Shown: positions 8,216 through 57,733, numbered from the stretch's first letter. The stretch: 60,602 bases of DNA from Pseudomonadota bacterium (GCA_038040245.1 JBBPIU010000001.1:1-60602), one strand, 5' to 3'. Numbers and translations are program-made. Notes: generated by a model from the sequence alone, not told the origin.

Positions 8216-10167
8216 CACTGCGTTCGAGGGCTGAGGGCGCGGCACAGTTCCCGCAGTTGGTTGCGCTCGGTGGCGTCGAGACCTTCCGGATCGAAGCGGT
8301 AGCGCTGGTGCAACTGGAGCGCTGCCCTGATTTTATTTAATTCTTGAAGAGAAAAATCAGTAGCAATTCTCTTTACCCACGCCGCCTGCGTTTCGCCGGA
8401 GGCGCGGGCGGCCAGGGTTTTCTCCACCGCATAGAACTCCGAGTCTTCGCCGGGATAGGGCAGGCGCGCGACGCCGGGCGCGGCTACGCCCCTACGCGTG
8501 ATGCGCCTGCCGCCGAACATGCGCCAGCCGAGAATCAGGGCGAGGACGACGAGCACGCCGTACCAGGCGTCGCCCGTCTTGAACTCGTCGCGCATGGTCC
8601 AGCGGAACCCCGCCCAGCGCGCGAGGTCGGCGAGCCCTTGCCAGAAGGGCGCCTCGCGCGCCTCTTCAGCGAACCAGTCCGGCGGCGTCGAATCGAGGTC
8701 GATCCAGCGGCCGCCGACCCAGGCGCGCGTCCAGGCATGGCTGTGGCGGCTGCGCACCACGTAGGCATCCTCCAGAGCGCTGCGCTCCATCACCGCGTAA
8801 CCGGTGGCGTAGCGCGCCGGGATGCCGGCGGCGCGCAGCAGCAGCGCCGCGGCGGCGGCGAAATACTCGCAGTGGCCGGAGCGCGTGCGCGTCATGAAAT
8901 CGCCGAGCGCGGTCTCGCCCTTCGGCACCGGGCGTTCGCGGTAGAGCGAGTAGGCGAAGCCGCCGAGATGGCGCTCGATGCGCCGCGCGGCTTCCTCGGC
9001 GGATACGTCGCGCAACCCCAGGTCGGCGGCGACACGCTCGAACACGGCGCGTTCGGCGGACGGAACAATCGAGTCCGCGGCGGCGGGCGGTGCATAGGTC
9101 TGGATTCCGGCGGCGCCCTCCGCCTGGTACTGGAGCCAGTCGGCGCCGGCGTCCACGTGCACCGCGCCGAGTGAATTGCGGCGCATGGAGACCGCGCTAA
9201 GCCCGGTAATGCGCGTCGTTGCCGCGGGCAGCGGCAGCAGCGCCTTGCCGTTCTCGATGCGGGCCGCGAAGCGCACGCCCCACGCGATCGGCTGCGTGGC
9301 CCCCACGAGCGTCCAGGTGGTGTTGTCCGCCTCCGATTCGAGCGTCTGCATCGCGCTCTCGCGGGCCAACCAGTTGGTGCCGGAATAGGTGTTGTAGCTC
9401 GCGCGGTGCAGCAGTCTCACGCGCGCGGCGTCGCCCTCGGCGGCGTAAACGCGCAGCAGGATGGCGTCGTACTGTTTCAACCGGCCGATCGAGCCTATTT
9501 CGGTGACGCTGCGGTAGGGATCGGTGTCCAGGCCGCTCAGATTGAAGTCCACCACCCACGATTCGACCTGCGCCTGCAGCTGTACGAGTCCCACTTGCCC
9601 GGCGTAACCGGCACCCGCGGCTGCGGCGAGCATCAGCACCCAGGCGGCGAGACTCGAATGCAAGGGCCTGATCACATACAGAGCCCAGGCCGTCGCCATC
9701 ACGACACCCGCGTAATACGCCGGGCCGCGCGCGTTTGCCACGCCCGCGGCGATGACCGCCAGCGCGACGTACACCGCGCTCACGTCCATCGCAGGATCCT
9801 CGATCTCCGGGTGCTGGCGCCGGAGTTTGCGCATGTAGCGGAACAGGGCCGAGAGCGGGATGCGGCCGTTCTCCGACAGCAGCTGCGCGAGCATGACCGG
9901 CGCCAGCGCCGCGGGCGCCCAGGTGAACGCTTCCAGGATGCCGCGGGAGATGCCGCGGTTGGCGGCAAGCAGCACGGTGAGCGTGACGAAACCCACGGTG
10001 GAGAGGTCGGCGATGCGCGAGTGCTCCACGGTGCCGAGCTCGAGCCGCAGCTTCAGGTAGCGCGGTGCCTCCAGCGCGATGCCGAGCGCGATGCCCGCCA
10101 CGAGATGGCCGGATTGCCAGCCCCAGAAGGCAAGCGCGGCGCCGATGAGAAAAGGAGGCGCGATCAT
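8215..10167 (-). CDS. transglutaminase-domain membrane protein (TgpA-like)
   Basis: 650 aa. N-terminal polytopic region. Transglutaminase core GHCEYFAAAAALLLRAAGIPARYATGY. Confidence 0.9.
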   Translation of the reverse strand: MIAPPFLIGAALAFWGWQSGHLVAGIALGIALEAPRYLKLRLELGTVEHSRIADLSTVGFVTLTVLLAANRGISRGILEAFTWAPAALAPVMLAQLLSENGRIPLSALFRYMRKLRRQHPEIEDPAMDVSAVYVALAVIAAGVANARGPAYYAGVVMATAWALYVIRPLHSSLAAWVLMLAAAAGAGYAGQVGLVQLQAQVESWVVDFNLSGLDTDPYRSVTEIGSIGRLKQYDAILLRVYAAEGDAARVRLLHRASYNTYSGTNWLARESAMQTLESEADNTTWTLVGATQPIAWGVRFAARIENGKALLPLPAATTRITGLSAVSMRRNSLGAVHVDAGADWLQYQAEGAAGIQTYAPPAAADSIVPSAERAVFERVAADLGLRDVSAEEAARRIERHLGGFAYSLYRERPVPKGETALGDFMTRTRSGHCEYFAAAAALLLRAAGIPARYATGYAVMERSALEDAYVVRSRHSHAWTRAWVGGRWIDLDSTPPDWFAEEAREAPFWQGLADLARWAGFRWTMRDEFKTGDAWYGVLVVLALILGWRMFGGRRITRRGVAAPGVARLPYPGEDSEFYAVEKTLAARASGETQAAWVKRIATDFSLQELNKIRAALQLHQRYRFDPEGLDATERNQLRELCRALSPRTQ

Positions 10168-11483
10168 CGCAATCCGGCCAGTCCCTGTTCTATTTTTCCC
10201 GGAATCAACTGGACGACCCCTGGCGGAGCATCGCCCTCGCCGCGAACCAGCAAGGCGCGCACGTCGAAGCCCTCGGCGCGCAGCGAGGCGACGAAGCGCG
10301 CGCGCTCGTCGTCCCAGCTGATGAAGATGGCAATCACGCTGGAGAGCGTGGCGCGGCGCCCGAGCACGCCTCGCGCGAGCGCCGCGAAGTCTCCGGGTGC
10401 GCTCGGACCCACGCCGGCGAGCACCTCGAGCATGTGTTCGACGAGCATCTGGCCGCGGCCCGCGGTATAGGCACGAACCTCACCTCCCACAAAAAGGAGG
10501 TCGAGCAGGCAATCGTGCGTGTCGATGGTGTAGACGAACGAGGCGGCAAGCGCGACCGCCTCCTCGAAGGCGGCATCCTCGCCGCCGCGGCTGCCGGTGT
10601 CGAGCACCAGCGCGTGGCGCTCGAAAAACTCGTCCTGGTACTCCTTGACCACCGGCTTGCCGGTGCGCGCAAAGCTCTTCCAATGGATCCGCTGCAGCGG
10701 GTCGCCCGGCCGGTAGTCGCGCAATGCAAGGAATTCCTCCGAGTCGCCCACCGAAGCCGCAAGCGACACGCCGCCGGGCTGGAACTTGCGCCGTCCCGGC
10801 AGCGCGATTTCGGGCAGCCGGTAGCGCTTGGGCAATGCGATCACCCGCCCTGCCAGCGGCACGCGCGCTAGGCCTTTCACCAGGCCCAGCGGATCGGGCC
10901 GGCCGAGGGTCAGGCCCGAGAACTCGATGCGCCCGCGCCGGCGCGGGGTGAAACCCAGCCGTAGCGTCAGGCGCTCACCGGGGGCGAGCGGCGGGAGGGC
11001 CGCGGGCTCGACGTTGCGCGGCACCCGCCGCTCGATCAGCCAGCGCCAGCGGAAGTAGCCGACGGTGCGGTCCCACCAGTTGCGGCGCTCCTCGCCGGGC
11101 TCGCGCGAGCGCTTCCATTCCTCGTACCCGGGACGCGGATCGCGAAAGCGCTCGAAGATGGTCGCCCCGGTGAGCGCGCGTGTCCCCCGGTTGGCGACGA
11201 CGATGCGGTAGATACAGCGCTCGCCCGCGGTGGCGTAGCGCGGCAGGTCACGGCTCGCTTCCAGCCGCGCGCGGAAGAAAAGGCTCGCGACGTAGGAGAT
11301 CGCAAGCAGCGCCGCCAGGAAGGTGAAGGCGCGGTAGGTGACGGTAAGGTTGGTGTCCAGCCCCGCGGCGGCAGCGGCGCCGCCTGCGCCCGCCACCAGC
11401 CAGCCGGCGAGCGTCAGCCGCTCGCGCAGCCAGTGGTCAAGCGCGCTCGCGAATCGCAGTGCGCGATAGATGGACCGCTTCAC
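10164..11483 (-). CDS. DUF58 (vWA-like) protein
   Basis: Typical DUF58 motif EEFLALRDYRPGDPLQRIHWKS. Start set at GTG 11483, 16 nt after the moxR stop; the longer track ORF would overlap moxR. Confidence 0.85.
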   Translation of the reverse strand: MKRSIYRALRFASALDHWLRERLTLAGWLVAGAGGAAAAAGLDTNLTVTYRAFTFLAALLAISYVASLFFRARLEASRDLPRYATAGERCIYRIVVANRGTRALTGATIFERFRDPRPGYEEWKRSREPGEERRNWWDRTVGYFRWRWLIERRVPRNVEPAALPPLAPGERLTLRLGFTPRRRGRIEFSGLTLGRPDPLGLVKGLARVPLAGRVIALPKRYRLPEIALPGRRKFQPGGVSLAASVGDSEEFLALRDYRPGDPLQRIHWKSFARTGKPVVKEYQDEFFERHALVLDTGSRGGEDAAFEEAVALAASFVYTIDTHDCLLDLLFVGGEVRAYTAGRGQMLVEHMLEVLAGVGPSAPGDFAALARGVLGRRATLSSVIAIFISWDDERARFVASLRAEGFDVRALLVRGEGDAPPGVVQLIPGKIEQGLAGLR

Positions 11484-11499
11484 GTCGGCGCCATGCGCT

Positions 11500-56460: not shown

Positions 56461-56461
56461 C

Positions 56462-57733
56462 TCAATCTTTCTTCAATGCGCGGTGGCCAATGTCCTTGCG
56501 GAACTGCATGCCGTCGAAGCGGATGGCGCCAGCCGCTTCGTAGGCACGGGTGCGCGCCATCTTGAGCGAGTCGCCGAGCGCTGTAACGCAAAGCACCCGT
56601 CCCCCGTTGGTCACGACGCGCTTGCCGTCGAGTTTCGTTCCGGCATGGAACACGCGGCAATCCTCGGCGGCCTTGGGCAGCCCGGTGATTTCATCGCCTT
56701 TGCGAGGATCGTCGGGATAACCTCCGGCCGCCAGCACCACGCCCAGTGCCGAGCGGCGGTCCCAGTCGGCGGAGGCGCGGTCCAATGTGCCCGCCAGCGC
56801 GTGCTCGACCAGCGCGAGCAGGTCCGACTTCAGACGCAGCATGATCGGCTGCGTCTCCGGGTCGCCGAGGCGGCAGTTGAATTCCAGCGTTTTCGGATTG
56901 CCCGCCTTGTCGATCATCAGGCCGGCGTAGAGAAAGCCGGTATAGGGCGTGCCGTCCTTCGCCATGCCGGCGATCGCCGGCTGGATGATTTCGCGCATCA
57001 CGCGCGCGTGCAGCTCCGGCGTCACCACCGGCGCGGGCGAGTAGGCGCCCATGCCGCCGGTGTTCGGCCCCTGGTCGCCGTCCTTCAGGCGCTTGTGGTC
57101 CTGGCTGGTGGCCAGCGGCAGCGTATGCGCGCCGTCCGCCATGACGATGAAACTCGCTTCCTCGCCGTCCAGAAATTCCTCCACCACGACGCGCGCGCCG
57201 GCATCGCCCAGCCGGTTCTCCACCAGCATCAGGTCGATCGCGGCCTTGGCTTGCGCGACAGTGGTCGCGACCACCACGCCCTTGCCGGCGGCCAGGCCGT
57301 CGGCCTTGATCACGATCGGCGCACCGTGCTTCTCGACGTGGGCCCTGGCGTCCGCGGCGTTAGTGAATGTCGCGTGCTTCGCCGTCGGCAGGCCGTGGCG
57401 CACCATGAACTGTTTGGCGAAATCCTTCGAGGCTTCGAGCTGCGCCGCGGCGCGCAGCGGGCCGAATATTTTCAGACCGGCTTGCTGGAAGGCGTCCACG
57501 ATGCCCGCGGCGAGCGGCGCCTCGGGGCCGACCACGGTCAGTTGAATATGTTCTTTTTTACAGAAATCAATCAACTGGGAAAAATCACTCAAAGACAAAT
57601 TCTCAAGACCGTTCTCCGTCGCGGTACCGCCGTTGCCGGGCGCGACGATCACTTTCTGCACGCGCGGGCTCTGCGCGAGCTTCCACGCCATCGCGTGCTC
57701 GCGTGCGCCCGAGCCGATGACGAGCAGTTTCAC
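56462..57733 (-). CDS. purD: phosphoribosylamine-glycine ligase
   Basis: 423 aa, collinear with E. coli PurD as recalled ([18 protein letters not shown]...[11 protein letters not shown]). Confidence 0.96.

What the first reader, a model, noticed from the sequence alone, without database searches (positions are those of the whole stretch)
8329..57607. Islands of A/T-ending rare codons embedded in otherwise GC3-saturated core genes
At least 14 stretches of about 10-40 codons switch abruptly to AT-rich, normally avoided codons (TTA, ATA, AGA, CTA, GGA, ACT, CAA, AAA, ATT, TTT) and then switch back.

Hand-decoded examples:
- purD 57607-57542 (minus): CTT GAG AAT TTG TCT TTG AGT GAT TTT TCC CAG TTG ATT GAT TTC TGT AAA AAA GAA CAT ATT CAA. 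15 of 22 codons end in A/T. The next ten codons (CTG ACC GTG GTC GGC CCC GAG GCG CCG CTC) all end in G/C.
- fadH 14359-14315: AAG CTT TTA TTC AAA AAG ACT TTA AAT AGA AAA AGC ATA GCA ATC.
- paaK 23894-23808: CTA CGC ATA GGA ATT TTT ... CTA AGA AAA CAG ATT GAA AAA AGA ACT TCC CTC CAA GCC ATT GAT.
- cobA 45194-45232: GAA ATA CTT TTT TTG GCC TTA AAA GCA ATA AAA ATC AAA.
- ada/alkA 16670-16699: TCT AGT TCA TTA AAT AGA ATT TTT CCT TCA.

Other islands: transglutaminase 8329-8376, DUF58 about 10186-10200, paaG 24632-24748, MFS 28811-28861, flavoprotein 41000-41031, 41091-41168 and 41452-41535, AtuA-2 47611-47697, livG 51185-51220.

Synonymous positions flip together with a shift to K/I/N/F/E residues. 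That points to a DNA- or RNA-level cause rather than protein function. As I recall the E. coli sequences, PurD, PaaK and FadH align through these segments with no length change, so they are recoded segments, not insertions. petABC, sspAB and fis show no such islands.

Possible roles: translational pause sites at domain linkers, AU-rich RNase E or sRNA-chaperone entry sites, nucleation sites for nucleoid proteins, or intragenic promoters.
Basis: partly seen in the sequence, partly recalled or inferred. Interest (0 to 1): 0.7.

Follow-up and report, generated by a model that had tools for sequence, protein, structure and literature searches.

The report
AT-rich rare-codon islands inside genes
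In this GC-rich soil or groundwater-type betaproteobacterium, about a dozen 25-90-base stretches inside ordinary genes have switched to AT-rich, normally avoided codons; the switch is real, is recent and confined to one narrow lineage, and looks like a local lapse of whatever keeps the rest of the genome GC-rich rather than a known regulatory signal.

Summary
With gene ends trimmed, the window has 15 clusters of A/T-ending codons against 3.1±1.6 in synonymous shuffles. Ten of the 20 strongest AT-rich DNA segments lie deep inside coding sequence.

- **Discrete:** most codon runs with AT-rich first and second positions keep G/C at the third position; about 12 flip.
- **Made in place:** no length change, and the PaaK peptide is identical in relatives that lack the island.
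- **Lineage-specific:** islands occur in the window and its closest relatives, are weak or absent in sister lineages sharing roughly 70-93% amino-acid identity per gene, and are absent from 47 other high-GC betaproteobacterial loci.
- **Fast-evolving:** they change faster than their flanks but hold AT3 near 0.65. The GC→AT spectrum is ordinary. A/T runs are enriched, and TpA steps and promoter-like motifs are depleted.
- **Junction subset:** five or six islands sit at gene junctions and are extreme translation-initiation regions.

Best reading (about 40%): the pressure towards G/C third positions is locally off, so these segments sit at the AT-biased mutational equilibrium, with rare-codon, AU-rich mRNA stretches as a by-product. 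Selected pause sites, RNA or nucleoid-protein elements, and a local mutational bias remain possible. Intragenic promoters, insertions, imported patches and assembly artefacts are not supported.

The parts
8330..8376 (-). Internal island in the transglutaminase-like gene (8215-10167), 115 nt before its stop
   Evidence: 14 of 15 codons end in A/T, LLR 21.6. The DNA segment is 78% AT. Pfam Transglut_core.
14294..14383 (-). Internal island in the 2,4-dienoyl-CoA reductase gene (fadH, 13457-15454). It lies on the linker between the FMN domain and the Rossmann domain; core 14316-14364.
   Evidence: LLR 18.1. The core is 76% AT. The Pfam domains end at residue 328 and restart at 377. Ungapped against E. 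coli FadH 1PS9. Relatives L166-168 have AT3 of 0.20-0.33 here.
16646..16702 (+). Internal island in the ada/alkA fusion gene (15728-17068); core 16669-16693
   Evidence: 15 of 19 codons end in A/T, LLR 20.5. Relatives have AT3 of 0.21-0.42.
23808..23894 (-). Internal island in the phenylacetate-CoA ligase gene (paaK, 23241-24509)
   Evidence: LLR 21.5. The peptide is identical in L166 and L168, but AT3 is 0.66 against 0.24 and 0.48, so the shift is purely synonymous. Ungapped against PaaK1 2Y27.
24620..24766 (-). Broad internal island in the enoyl-CoA hydratase gene (paaG-like, 24524-25309)
   Evidence: 27 of 49 codons end in A/T, LLR 23.4. Relatives have AT3 of 0.20-0.24.
28811..28854 (+). 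Internal island in the MFS transporter gene (28340-29509); contains runs of T8 and A6
   Evidence: 12 of 14 codons end in A/T, LLR 17.5. The segment is 75% AT.
41001..41030 (+). Internal island 1 in the flavoprotein gene (40522-41946)
   Evidence: DNA LLR 10.2, 77% AT. Identical over all 30 bases in relative L165.
41452..41511 (+). Internal island 2 in the flavoprotein gene
   Evidence: LLR 14.6. AT3 is 0.65 in both the window and L165.
43544..43612 (+). Internal island in the sulfite/nitrite reductase gene (43025-44725).
   Evidence: LLR 16.9. Absent from the closest genome: L165 has AT3 of 0.17, and local identity is 0.58. This is an example of gain or loss.
45194..45232 (+). Internal island in the uroporphyrinogen methyltransferase gene (cobA, 45074-45898), 121 nt from the start
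   Evidence: 10 of 13 codons end in A/T, LLR 13.4. L165 has AT3 of 0.85.
51185..51219 (+). Internal island in the ABC ATPase gene (livG-like, 51011-51775), 174 nt from the start
   Evidence: DNA LLR 10.8, 74% AT. Conserved in L081.
57542..57610 (-). Internal island in purD (56462-57733), codons 42-64
   Evidence: 16 of 23 codons end in A/T, LLR 19.4. AT3 is graded across relatives: 0.87, 0.74, 0.43, 0.39 and 0.09. There is no dip in the pooled GC3 profile (0.77-0.86 here) of 53 other high-GC purD genes. Ungapped against 5VEV.
10167..10205 (-). Junction island: the last codons of the DUF58 gene, directly upstream of the overlapping start of the transglutaminase-like gene
   Evidence: LLR 8.3. 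The genes overlap at 10164-10167. The general start-codon AT rise is shown.
47608..47695 (-). Junction island: the last 27 codons of the AtuA gene, running into the start of the AtuA-ferredoxin gene (47256-47609)
   Evidence: LLR 20.8. DNA LLR 17.6. AT-rich in L081 too.
47236..47265 (-). Junction island: the first codons of the TetR gene (46675-47259) and the end of the upstream gene
   Evidence: 85% AT. The codons read KRKTKKD.
44648..44710 (+). Junction island: the 3' end of the reductase gene, overlapping the start of the DUF934 gene (44670)
   Evidence: LLR 13.6. Conserved in L165.
52521..52553 (+). AT-rich first codons of the AMP-binding gene (52518-54347)
   Evidence: LLR 10.2.
17046..17095 (+). 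Junction island: the end of ada/alkA and the start of the ogt-like gene (17065)
   Evidence: DNA LLR 12.6, 70% AT.

Best explanation
The islands are genuine compositional islands specific to one lineage.

**Shown**
- They arose in place, by ordinary GC→AT substitutions, in codon runs whose first two positions were already AT-rich.
- They are discrete and have sharp edges.
- They are recent and specific to the lineage.
- They evolve fast, with a normal mutational spectrum.
- They are not promoters, insertions or repeats.

**Inferred**
- Inside an island, the pressure that keeps third codon positions G/C everywhere else in these genes is switched off.
- The stretch therefore relaxes to the AT-biased mutational equilibrium, with about 65-70% A/T at third positions. 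Amino acids drift towards K, N, I, E and S where the protein tolerates it.
- The system behaves as two states. Most AT-prone runs stay 'protected', with G/C at nearly every third position. A minority 'collapse' as a block, bounded by codons for Gly, Ala, Pro and Arg.
- This fits a cost that saturates: once a stretch is already AT-rich, further A/T changes cost nothing more.
- Selection still removes TpA steps and promoter-like motifs inside islands.
- Islands at gene junctions and first codons are the extreme end of the usual weakly structured translation-initiation region.
- As a by-product, internal islands are clusters of the rarest codons (AGA, ATA, TTA, CTA) in an AU-rich stretch of mRNA. 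They probably slow ribosomes and expose the transcript, but nothing here shows that this is their purpose.
For: **Discrete, not a context gradient**
- Outside islands, third-position A/T is flat or slightly falling as the neighbouring first and second positions become AT-rich. At four-fold sites it goes from 0.110 to about 0.06 (rho -0.05, p 6e-5).
- Of about 110 non-overlapping AT12-rich 15-codon stretches (AT12>=0.63), most have AT3 of 0-0.1 and about 12 have AT3>=0.4.

**Made in place**
- No gaps at the islands.
- The PaaK peptide is identical in relatives, with different codons.

**Recent and lineage-specific**
- Strong internal islands per 10,000 codons: window 5.6, L081 4.6, L165 4.0, L162 8.3, L164 3.5, L163 1.9, L167 1.7, L166 0, L168 0.
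- Forty-seven other high-GC betaproteobacterial loci show an excess near 0.
- Gains and losses between close relatives: the reductase island is in the window only, a dus island in L162 only, and a purH island in L081 and L162 only.

**Rates**
- Window against L081: synonymous differences 0.33 in islands against 0.18 elsewhere; amino-acid differences 0.175 against 0.099; AT3 is 0.65 in both.
- On the window branch, GC→AT at synonymous sites is 0.378 per site in islands against 0.077 elsewhere. AT→GC is 0.20 against 0.43.
- My inference from those numbers: with a mutational bias of about 2.4, the rest of the genes are under a GC-favouring pressure of about 4Ns=2.6. Unconstrained sites would then show GC→AT of about 0.37 and an equilibrium AT3 of about 0.71, close to what the islands show.

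**Spectrum and codon usage**
- 68% of GC→AT changes in islands are transitions, against 73% elsewhere. No special mutagen is needed.
- Codon usage in islands is that of an AT-rich genome, including synonymous first positions.

**Where islands fall**
- Genes with islands have slightly weaker codon bias elsewhere (AT3 0.140 against 0.115, p 0.046). The most biased genes (petB, petC, sspA, liv permeases, fis) have none.

**Residual selection**
- TpA occurs 24 times against 55.6 expected; TATA and TAAT 0 against 7.
- Promoter scores are below shuffles.

**Junction subset**
- AT rises to 0.41-0.47 between -30 and +20 of start codons. AT3 is 0.27 in codons 2-6.
Against: - I cannot say why the pressure should lapse over 25-90 bases. 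The saturating-cost idea is an inference.
- The polarised rates are biased by ascertainment, because the islands were chosen for being AT-rich in the window. They also rest on few sites: 37 G/C and 5 A/T synonymous sites.
- Low protein constraint is not sufficient. Other variable stretches of PurD keep AT3 at 0.07-0.20.
- Some islands persist at one position across several relatives (purD). One is identical over 30 bases in a gene that is only 85% identical. Both could mean positional selection.
- A/T runs of five or more are enriched (15 against 4.2 expected), while G/C runs are strongly avoided.
- The 8-mer AAATAGAA occurs five times, always in islands and always on the sense strand.
- Three islands lie 120-175 nt from the start codon.
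- These regularities are not predicted by simple relaxation.
Confidence: 0.4

Rival explanations
1. The islands are selected nucleic-acid elements. Either they are AU-rich, weakly structured mRNA stretches used as entry sites for RNase E, Hfq or S1, or they are A/T-tract DNA bound by a nucleoid protein specific to this lineage. In either case AT-richness itself is the selected trait, placed wherever the protein tolerates it.
For: - The shift affects all three codon positions, including synonymous first positions.
- A/T runs are enriched and TpA steps depleted, which is the definition of A-tracts, even though homopolymers of G or C are avoided.
- Shared k-mers exceed dinucleotide shuffles: 17 shared 9-mers against 5.6 (p 0.007). 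AAATAGAA occurs five times, all on the sense strand.
- The purD position is kept through several relatives.
- Internal islands resemble the junction islands in composition.
- Appearance in one lineage could follow the gain of a binding factor.
Against: - There is no sequence conservation. Islands evolve faster than their flanks and come and go between close relatives.
- AT3 sits at about the level expected without any selection, not above it.
- No regular placement is visible in 60 kb.
- No Rfam family matches.
- TpA-poor A-tracts are poor targets for H-NS-type silencers. That statement rests on my own knowledge of the field and was not tested.
- No binding or cleavage data can be obtained here.
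Confidence: 0.2
2. The islands are selected translational pause sites: classical rare-codon clusters that slow the ribosome to help co-translational folding or membrane insertion.
For: - The rarest codons are enriched 10- to 50-fold or more: AGA, ATA, TTA.
- Clustering exceeds synonymous shuffles.
- The FadH island is on an interdomain linker.
- Rare-codon clusters are documented in many genomes and can impede translation (PMC2565806). Some are conserved in position (PMC5438181).
Against: - The same proteins in sister lineages and in 47 other high-GC loci lack the clusters, so the protein folds do not need them.
- Amino acids and synonymous first positions shift as well, which a pause does not require.
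- Rare G-ending codons (AGG, GGG) are not enriched, although the island definition works against them.
- The PaaK and PurD islands lie inside domains.
- Turnover between relatives is fast.
Confidence: 0.15
3. The islands reflect a local mutational bias rather than a fixation bias. AT-rich runs melt more easily, single-stranded DNA deaminates and oxidises faster, and this feeds back to drive the stretch further towards AT. The lineage effect would come from a change in repair or supercoiling.
For: - The behaviour is two-state, with edges at GC-rich codons.
- GC→AT is raised five-fold and overall divergence is raised.
- In a block where purD is 98-99% identical between the window and L081, 7 differences fall within the 80-base island.
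- The feature is lineage-specific.
Against: - The GC→AT spectrum in islands equals the background (68% against 73% transitions).
- AT→GC appears lowered, not unchanged, though on very few sites.
- Many equally AT12-rich runs do not collapse.
- Cannot be separated from relaxation with these data.
Confidence: 0.15
4. The islands are intragenic or antisense promoters.
For: They are the most AT-rich DNA in the window, as AT-rich as or richer than the intergenic promoter regions. One weak antisense match lies in the purD island.
Against: - Best sigma-70 scores are below composition-matched shuffles in 7 of 10 internal islands (mean z -0.5).
- The tool scan finds no excess.
- TATA and TAAT are absent and TpA is halved.
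- There is no consistent distance to downstream starts.
Confidence: 0.03
5. The islands are short patches imported from an AT-rich donor, or in-frame insertions of a mobile element.
For: Codon usage inside islands looks like that of an AT-rich genome. The clade recombines heavily: identity to L081 is a mosaic of 95-100% blocks and 56-80% blocks.
Against: - No length change.
- The peptide is identical or nearly so in relatives without the island (PaaK).
- Intermediate states exist at purD.
- Mosaic breakpoints do not coincide with internal islands.
- The islands do not form a repeat family.
Confidence: 0.02
6. The islands are an assembly or polishing artefact.
For: The window comes from a metagenome contig.
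Against: The same islands, with a few substitutions, occur in independent assemblies from other samples: JGI 3300035310, 3300036760 and 3300036859, and ENA ERZ12293633. They are always in frame.
Confidence: 0.01

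Closest known systems
Rare-codon clusters (Clarke & Clark 2008, PMC2565806; Chaney et al. 2017, PMC5438181)
   Same: Synonymous rare codons are clustered far beyond random expectation, inside ordinary and essential genes. They are likely to slow translation locally.
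   Different: - Positions here are not conserved beyond a narrow lineage and turn over quickly.
- Amino acids and synonymous first positions shift with the third positions.
- Sister lineages with the same proteins lack the clusters.
- The trait enriched is AT-richness rather than codon rarity as such.
AT-rich, weakly structured regions around start codons, and rare codons at gene termini (PMC2833160)
   Same: Five or six islands lie at overlapping gene junctions or in the first codons. The window as a whole shows the usual AT rise from -30 to +20.
   Different: Twelve islands lie 115-1800 nt from any gene end and are not followed by plausible internal starts.
AT-biased mutation opposed by a GC-favouring force (selection or biased gene conversion) in GC-rich bacteria. 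This comparison rests on my knowledge of the field.
   Same: Island third positions sit near the composition expected from mutation alone, and they change at roughly the unconstrained rate.
   Different: That framework describes whole genomes or genes. A sharp lapse over 25-90 bases, in two states, within single genes is not part of it as far as I know.
A-tract clusters and curved DNA in bacterial nucleoids (papers found, e.g. PMC3940949, PMC3431218)
   Same: Runs of A or T without TpA steps are packed into about 30-90 bases, inside coding sequence as well as between genes.
   Different: I saw no clear 10-11-base phasing on inspection. This was not formally tested, and binding is unknown.
AT-rich intragenic targets of H-NS-type silencers and spurious intragenic promoters (PMC3923964)
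   Same: Locally AT-rich DNA within genes of a GC-rich genome.
   Different: These are not foreign genes. The stretches are short, poor in TpA and depleted of promoter-like motifs.

Membership tests
Rare-codon cluster | Rare synonymous codons clustered beyond what random synonymous re-coding of the same protein gives | tested here: met
   24 segments against 6.5±2.0. With gene ends trimmed, 15 against 3.1±1.6.
Rare-codon cluster | Position conserved among homologues from different species (the conserved-cluster subclass) | tested here: not met
   The purD island has no counterpart in the pooled GC3 profile of 53 other high-GC betaproteobacterial purD genes. The fadH, ada, paaK, paaG and MFS islands are weak or absent in relatives at 75-93% amino-acid identity.
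Rare-codon cluster | Slows the ribosome | not testable with these tools
   Needs ribosome profiling or in vitro translation.
Translation-initiation region of low structure | Lies within about -30 to +20 nt of a start codon | tested here: met
   Met for the junction subset: 10167-10205, 17046-17095, 44648-44710, 47236-47265, 47608-47695 and 52521-52553. Not met for the 12 internal islands.
Sigma-70-type intragenic promoter | -35 and -10 hexamers at 16-18 nt spacing, better than composition predicts | tested here: not met
   Mean z -0.5 against shuffles. No excess in the tool scan.
Insertion or imported patch | Length change, or a foreign peptide relative to orthologues | tested here: not met
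   Ungapped alignments. The PaaK peptide is identical in L166 and L168.
Deaminase-type clustered hypermutation | Almost only C→T and G→A changes, coordinated by strand | tested here: not met
   17 transitions and 8 transversions among GC→AT changes in islands, the same proportion as elsewhere.
H-NS/MvaT/Lsr2-type silencer target | AT-rich DNA with flexible TpA steps, bound by the silencer | tested here: inconclusive
   AT-richness is met. TpA steps are depleted to 0.42 of expectation. Binding cannot be tested.
Known RNA family | Match to an Rfam covariance model | tested here: not met
   Only tRNA-Thr reaches the gathering score.

The most novel reading that the evidence does not exclude
A narrow lineage of uncultured Burkholderiales-like bacteria has recently acquired hundreds of short A/T-tract, TpA-poor islands inside its core genes. 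Extrapolating 5.6 per 10,000 codons to a genome of several megabases gives that order of magnitude.

There are two novel readings:
- The islands are selected landing sites for a lineage-specific factor acting on DNA or RNA.
- They are the first clear case of a two-state, block-wise local escape from the force that keeps bacterial genomes GC-rich. That would provide built-in neutral reference sites for measuring that force.
Probability: 0.25. Interest if true: 0.75.

Novelty: new variant of a known kind. Interest (0 to 1): 0.5.

Why it matters
Why GC-rich bacteria stay GC-rich against an AT-biased mutation supply is an old open question. The candidates are selection and biased gene conversion.

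If these islands are places where that force is locally off, three things follow:
- They give within-gene internal controls. Mutational equilibrium, the strength of the force (about 4Ns=2.6 here, by inference) and its spatial grain can be read from the same transcripts.
- Edges only a few codons wide are hard to reconcile with conversion tracts of hundreds of bases, so they would favour a codon- or oligomer-level force.
- The contrast between island-rich and island-poor sister lineages offers a comparative handle on the cause, such as repair genes, nucleoid proteins or population size.

If instead the islands are selected elements, they would be a new lineage-specific layer of regulation embedded in coding sequence.

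On the practical side, the islands are clusters of AGA, ATA, TTA and CTA codons with homopolymers up to T8. This matters for heterologous expression and for gene callers.

Tried and rejected
- **Smooth neighbour-context effect.** Rejected: third-position A/T does not rise with the AT content of neighbouring first and second positions outside islands.
- **Low protein constraint or translational accuracy alone.** Rejected as sufficient: variable PurD columns outside the island keep AT3 at 0-0.2.
- **Universal feature of purD.** Rejected.
- **Ordinary for high-GC betaproteobacteria.** Rejected.
- **Promoters.** Rejected.
- **IHF sites.** One consensus match in the window, and it is intergenic.
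- **Repeat or mobile-element copies.** Rejected.
- **Rfam families.** None.
- **Polymerase-slippage growth of homopolymers.** Not supported: G and C runs are strongly depleted while A and T runs are enriched.
- **Deaminase signature.** Absent.
- **Recombination breakpoints at islands.** No coincidence for internal islands.
- **Internal translation starts after islands.** Reading the sequences showed no start codon with a ribosome-binding site.
- **Searches that yielded little.**
  - The two exact-sequence look-ups of the window's own PurD found nothing.
  - The metagenome scan returned only four close relatives.
  - The species-representative genome scan had nothing closer than 78%.
  - Close relatives therefore came from protein-identity look-ups.

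Full report
**Source and gene map**

The window is 65.2% G+C. PurD's closest named relatives are metagenome-assembled 'Betaproteobacteria bacterium RBG_16_66_20' and 'Burkholderiales bacterium', and the window's own contig is 78 kb.

I built a gene map of 54 genes with a codon log-odds caller. Coding sequence has 86% G/C at third positions.

**Check of the observation**

The quoted sequences are there as written.

- Segmenting each gene by A/T-ending codons gives 24 segments with LLR>=8. Five hundred within-gene synonymous shuffles give 6.5±2.0, maximum 13.
- With 15 codons trimmed from each gene end, the count is 15 against 3.1±1.6.
- On plain DNA there are 20 AT-rich segments with LLR>=9, against 0.85 expected.
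  - Ten are deep in coding sequence.
  - Six are classed as at gene junctions.
  - Four are between genes.
- The internal islands are 66-84% AT. They are as AT-rich as, or richer than, the intergenic regions.

**The islands are a discrete state, not the tail of a gradient**

- Third-position A/T barely depends on the AT content of neighbouring first and second positions.
- With islands masked, it is flat or slightly falling. At four-fold sites it goes from 0.110 to about 0.06 (rho -0.05, p 6e-5).
- About 110 non-overlapping AT12-rich 15-codon stretches (AT12>=0.63) were examined.
  - Most have AT3 of 0-0.1. An example is AAG AAC TTC AAC TTC TGG TAC TTC TTC.
  - About 12 have AT3>=0.4.
- Low protein constraint is not enough. 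The purD island is the least conserved stretch of PurD, but the next most variable stretches keep AT3 at 0.07-0.20. Outside the island, AT3 does not vary with column conservation.

**The islands were made in place**

- PurD, FadH and PaaK align without gaps through the islands to solved homologues 5VEV, 1PS9 and 2Y27 (E. coli PurD 1GSO was also listed but its alignment was not printed).
- They also align without gaps to close relatives.
- The 29-residue PaaK island peptide is identical in L166 and L168, yet AT3 is 0.66 in the window, 0.48 in L168 and 0.24 in L166.
- The islands do not belong to a repeat family and match no Rfam model.

**The islands are recent and lineage-specific**

- In the pooled GC3 profile of the 53 high-GC3 purD genes from other betaproteobacteria there is no dip at the island; GC3 is 0.77-0.86 there.
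- Within the clade, AT3 at the purD island is graded with relatedness:

| Locus | AT3 at the purD island |
|---|---|
| Window | 0.70 |
| L081 | 0.87 |
| L162 | 0.74 |
| L164 | 0.43 |
| L163 | 0.39 |
| L082 | 0.39 |
| L083 | 0.09 |

- Strong internal islands per 10,000 codons:

| Locus | Islands per 10,000 codons |
|---|---|
| Window | 5.6 |
| L081 | 4.6 |
| L165 | 4.0 |
| L162 | 8.3 |
| L164 | 3.5 |
| L163 | 1.9 |
| L167 | 1.7 |
| L166 | 0 |
| L168 | 0 |

- L166-L168 carry the same fadH-ada-paaK-paaG-MFS genes at 75-93% amino-acid identity.
- Forty-seven other loci with at least 60% GC, including Burkholderia, Paraburkholderia, Cupriavidus, Azospira and Thiobacillus, show essentially no excess over synonymous shuffles. 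The few nominal hits there are weak and of a different character.
- Islands are gained or lost between close relatives:
  - The reductase island is absent from the closest genome.
  - A dus island exists only in L162.
  - A purH island exists only in L081 and L162.
- The same islands appear in independent assemblies, which rules out an artefact.

**How the islands evolve**

- Between the window and L081:
  - Island codons differ more than the rest. Synonymous differences are 0.33 against 0.18, and amino-acid differences are 0.175 against 0.099.
  - AT3 is 0.65 in both genomes, with balanced changes (9 and 10).
- In the 98-99% identical purD block, 7 differences fall in the 80-base island.
- One flavoprotein island is instead identical over 30 bases, so the behaviour is not uniform.
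- Using L166-L168 as outgroups for the window branch:
  - Synonymous GC→AT is 0.378 per site in islands against 0.077 elsewhere.
  - Synonymous AT→GC is 0.20 against 0.43.
  - The caveat is that the islands were ascertained in the window, and the counts are small.
- My inference from those numbers:
  - With a mutational bias near 2.4, the rest of the genes are under a GC-favouring pressure of about 4Ns=2.6.
  - Unconstrained sites would then show GC→AT of about 0.37 and an equilibrium AT3 of about 0.71.
  - That is close to what the islands show.
- The GC→AT spectrum in islands (11 C>T, 6 G>A, 6 C>A, 2 G>T) matches the background: 68% against 73% transitions. No unusual mutagen is indicated.

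**What the islands are made of**

- Codon usage is that of an AT-rich genome, as fractions of each amino acid's codons:

| Codon | In islands | Elsewhere |
|---|---|---|
| AGA | 0.50 | 0.01 |
| TTA | 0.18 | 0.00 |
| ATA | 0.28 | 0.03 |
| TTG | 0.26 | 0.06 |

- TTG ends in G, so its enrichment shows that synonymous first positions shift as well.
- K, N, I, E and S are enriched. A, G, P, V and R are depleted.
- Runs of five or more A or T occur 15 times against 4.2 expected.
- TpA occurs 24 times against 55.6 expected, and TATA and TAAT occur 0 times against 7 expected.
- Across all genes, G and C homopolymers are strongly avoided.
- Islands share more k-mers than dinucleotide shuffles predict: 17 shared 9-mers against 5.6.
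- AAATAGAA occurs five times in the window, always in an island and always on the sense strand, in two reading frames. I cannot explain this.

**Tests of proposed roles**

- *Promoters.* Internal islands score below composition-matched shuffles (mean z -0.5). The tool scan finds three promoter-like sites in 40 kb, no more than in shuffles, with a single weak antisense hit in the purD island.
- *IHF.* There is no consensus match in any island.
- *Recombination.* Identity to L081 and L165 is strongly mosaic. The purH core is 56-73% identical between flanks at 95-100%. Breakpoints do not fall on internal islands.
- *Gene-level effect.* Genes with islands have slightly weaker codon bias elsewhere (AT3 0.140 against 0.115, p 0.046). 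The most biased genes have none.
- *Junction subset.* The window shows the familiar AT rise around start codons, 0.41-0.47 between -30 and +20. AT3 is 0.27 in codons 2-6 and 0.23 in the last ten codons. The islands at 10167-10205, 17046-17095, 44648-44710, 47236-47265, 47608-47695 and 52521-52553 are extreme cases of this.

**Interpretation**

The evidence fits best a local lapse of the GC-favouring pressure, in codon runs that are AT-prone at positions 1 and 2.

- The behaviour is two-state. Runs are either protected or collapsed, with edges set by GC-rich codons.
- Some selection remains inside islands, against TpA steps and promoter-like motifs.
- Why the pressure lapses is not shown. I suggest a saturating cost of local AT-richness, with collapse more likely in weakly biased genes and in this lineage.
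- A raised local GC→AT mutation bias cannot be separated from this with the present data.
- Adaptive readings remain open, because some positions persist and the sequence regularities are unexplained. These readings are a pause site, an AU-rich RNA entry site, or an A-tract site for a DNA-binding protein.
- Against the adaptive readings stand the fast turnover, the near-neutral composition, and the absence of islands from sister lineages with the same proteins.

**Comparison with what is known**

- The islands meet the operational definition of rare-codon clusters (PMC2565806).
- They do not meet the position-conserved subclass (PMC5438181).
- They differ in being a nucleotide-level AT shift that also changes amino acids and is confined to a narrow lineage.
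- I therefore class them as a new variant of a known kind, of moderate interest.

Noticed in passing
window 17588-22237: This stretch has lower G+C (0.60) and carries three genes of weaker codon bias (17755-18840, 19131-20138, 20783-21907). It is absent from relatives L166-L168, where ogt lies close to the paaK cluster. It is punctuated by about six real copies (seven listed, one probably chance) of a hairpin repeat of about 43 nt (AATGACCGCTTTCGGCCAAAAGCGGTCATT). This looks like an insertion peppered with REP- or MITE-like palindromes.
   Followed up: partly
window 38828-38888 and 15475-15508: A perfect 30-nt inverted repeat with a single central base lies between convergent genes (TAGAAAAAGGGGGTCAGAACAACATTTCGC / reverse complement). 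A related GGTCAGAA...TTCTGACC hairpin lies downstream of fadH. This is probably a family of bidirectional terminators.
   Followed up: no
window 58060-59109 (purH), 52510-53859, 49060-51159: Identity to the closest genome (L081) is a mosaic. These blocks are 56-80% identical, set between blocks at 95-100%. The window's purH is 90% identical in protein to L164 but only 71% to L081. This indicates frequent allele replacement by recombination within the clade.
   Followed up: partly
window 10188, 14329, 16681, 28842, 47624: The 8-mer AAATAGAA occurs five times in 60 kb, against 0.2 expected. Every copy lies in an AT island and on the sense strand. It reads as K-I-E in three genes and as (L)-N-R in two. 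It is not conserved in relatives and remains unexplained.
   Followed up: partly
window 41918-42892 and 45074; L165 8414-9265 and 11340-14247: Gene content differs from the closest genome. The window has a different gene where L165 has a TauE-family gene. The window also lacks the PAPS-reductase and GTPase genes (cysH/D/N-like) that lie between DUF934 and cobA in L165.
   Followed up: no
window 7832-8245 (-): An uncalled ORF of 137 aa has a signal-peptide-like N-terminus and a Q/R-rich body. It overlaps the stop of the transglutaminase-like gene, and an internal ATG lies at 8215. It is probably a real, translationally coupled downstream gene. The 8330-8376 island lies 115-160 nt upstream of it.
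   Followed up: no
PurD C-terminus, proteins P0003, P0006, P0043, P0051, P0101: Some relatives carry one to three tandem copies of a heptapeptide (RDPAGAL) inserted just before the last residues of PurD. The window lacks this insert.
   Followed up: no
window 28820-28827, 41022-41028, 47641-47647: Homopolymers of T8 and A7 occur inside coding sequence, in the MFS, flavoprotein and AtuA genes. The genome otherwise avoids homopolymers. These are potential sites of transcriptional or replication slippage.
   Followed up: no
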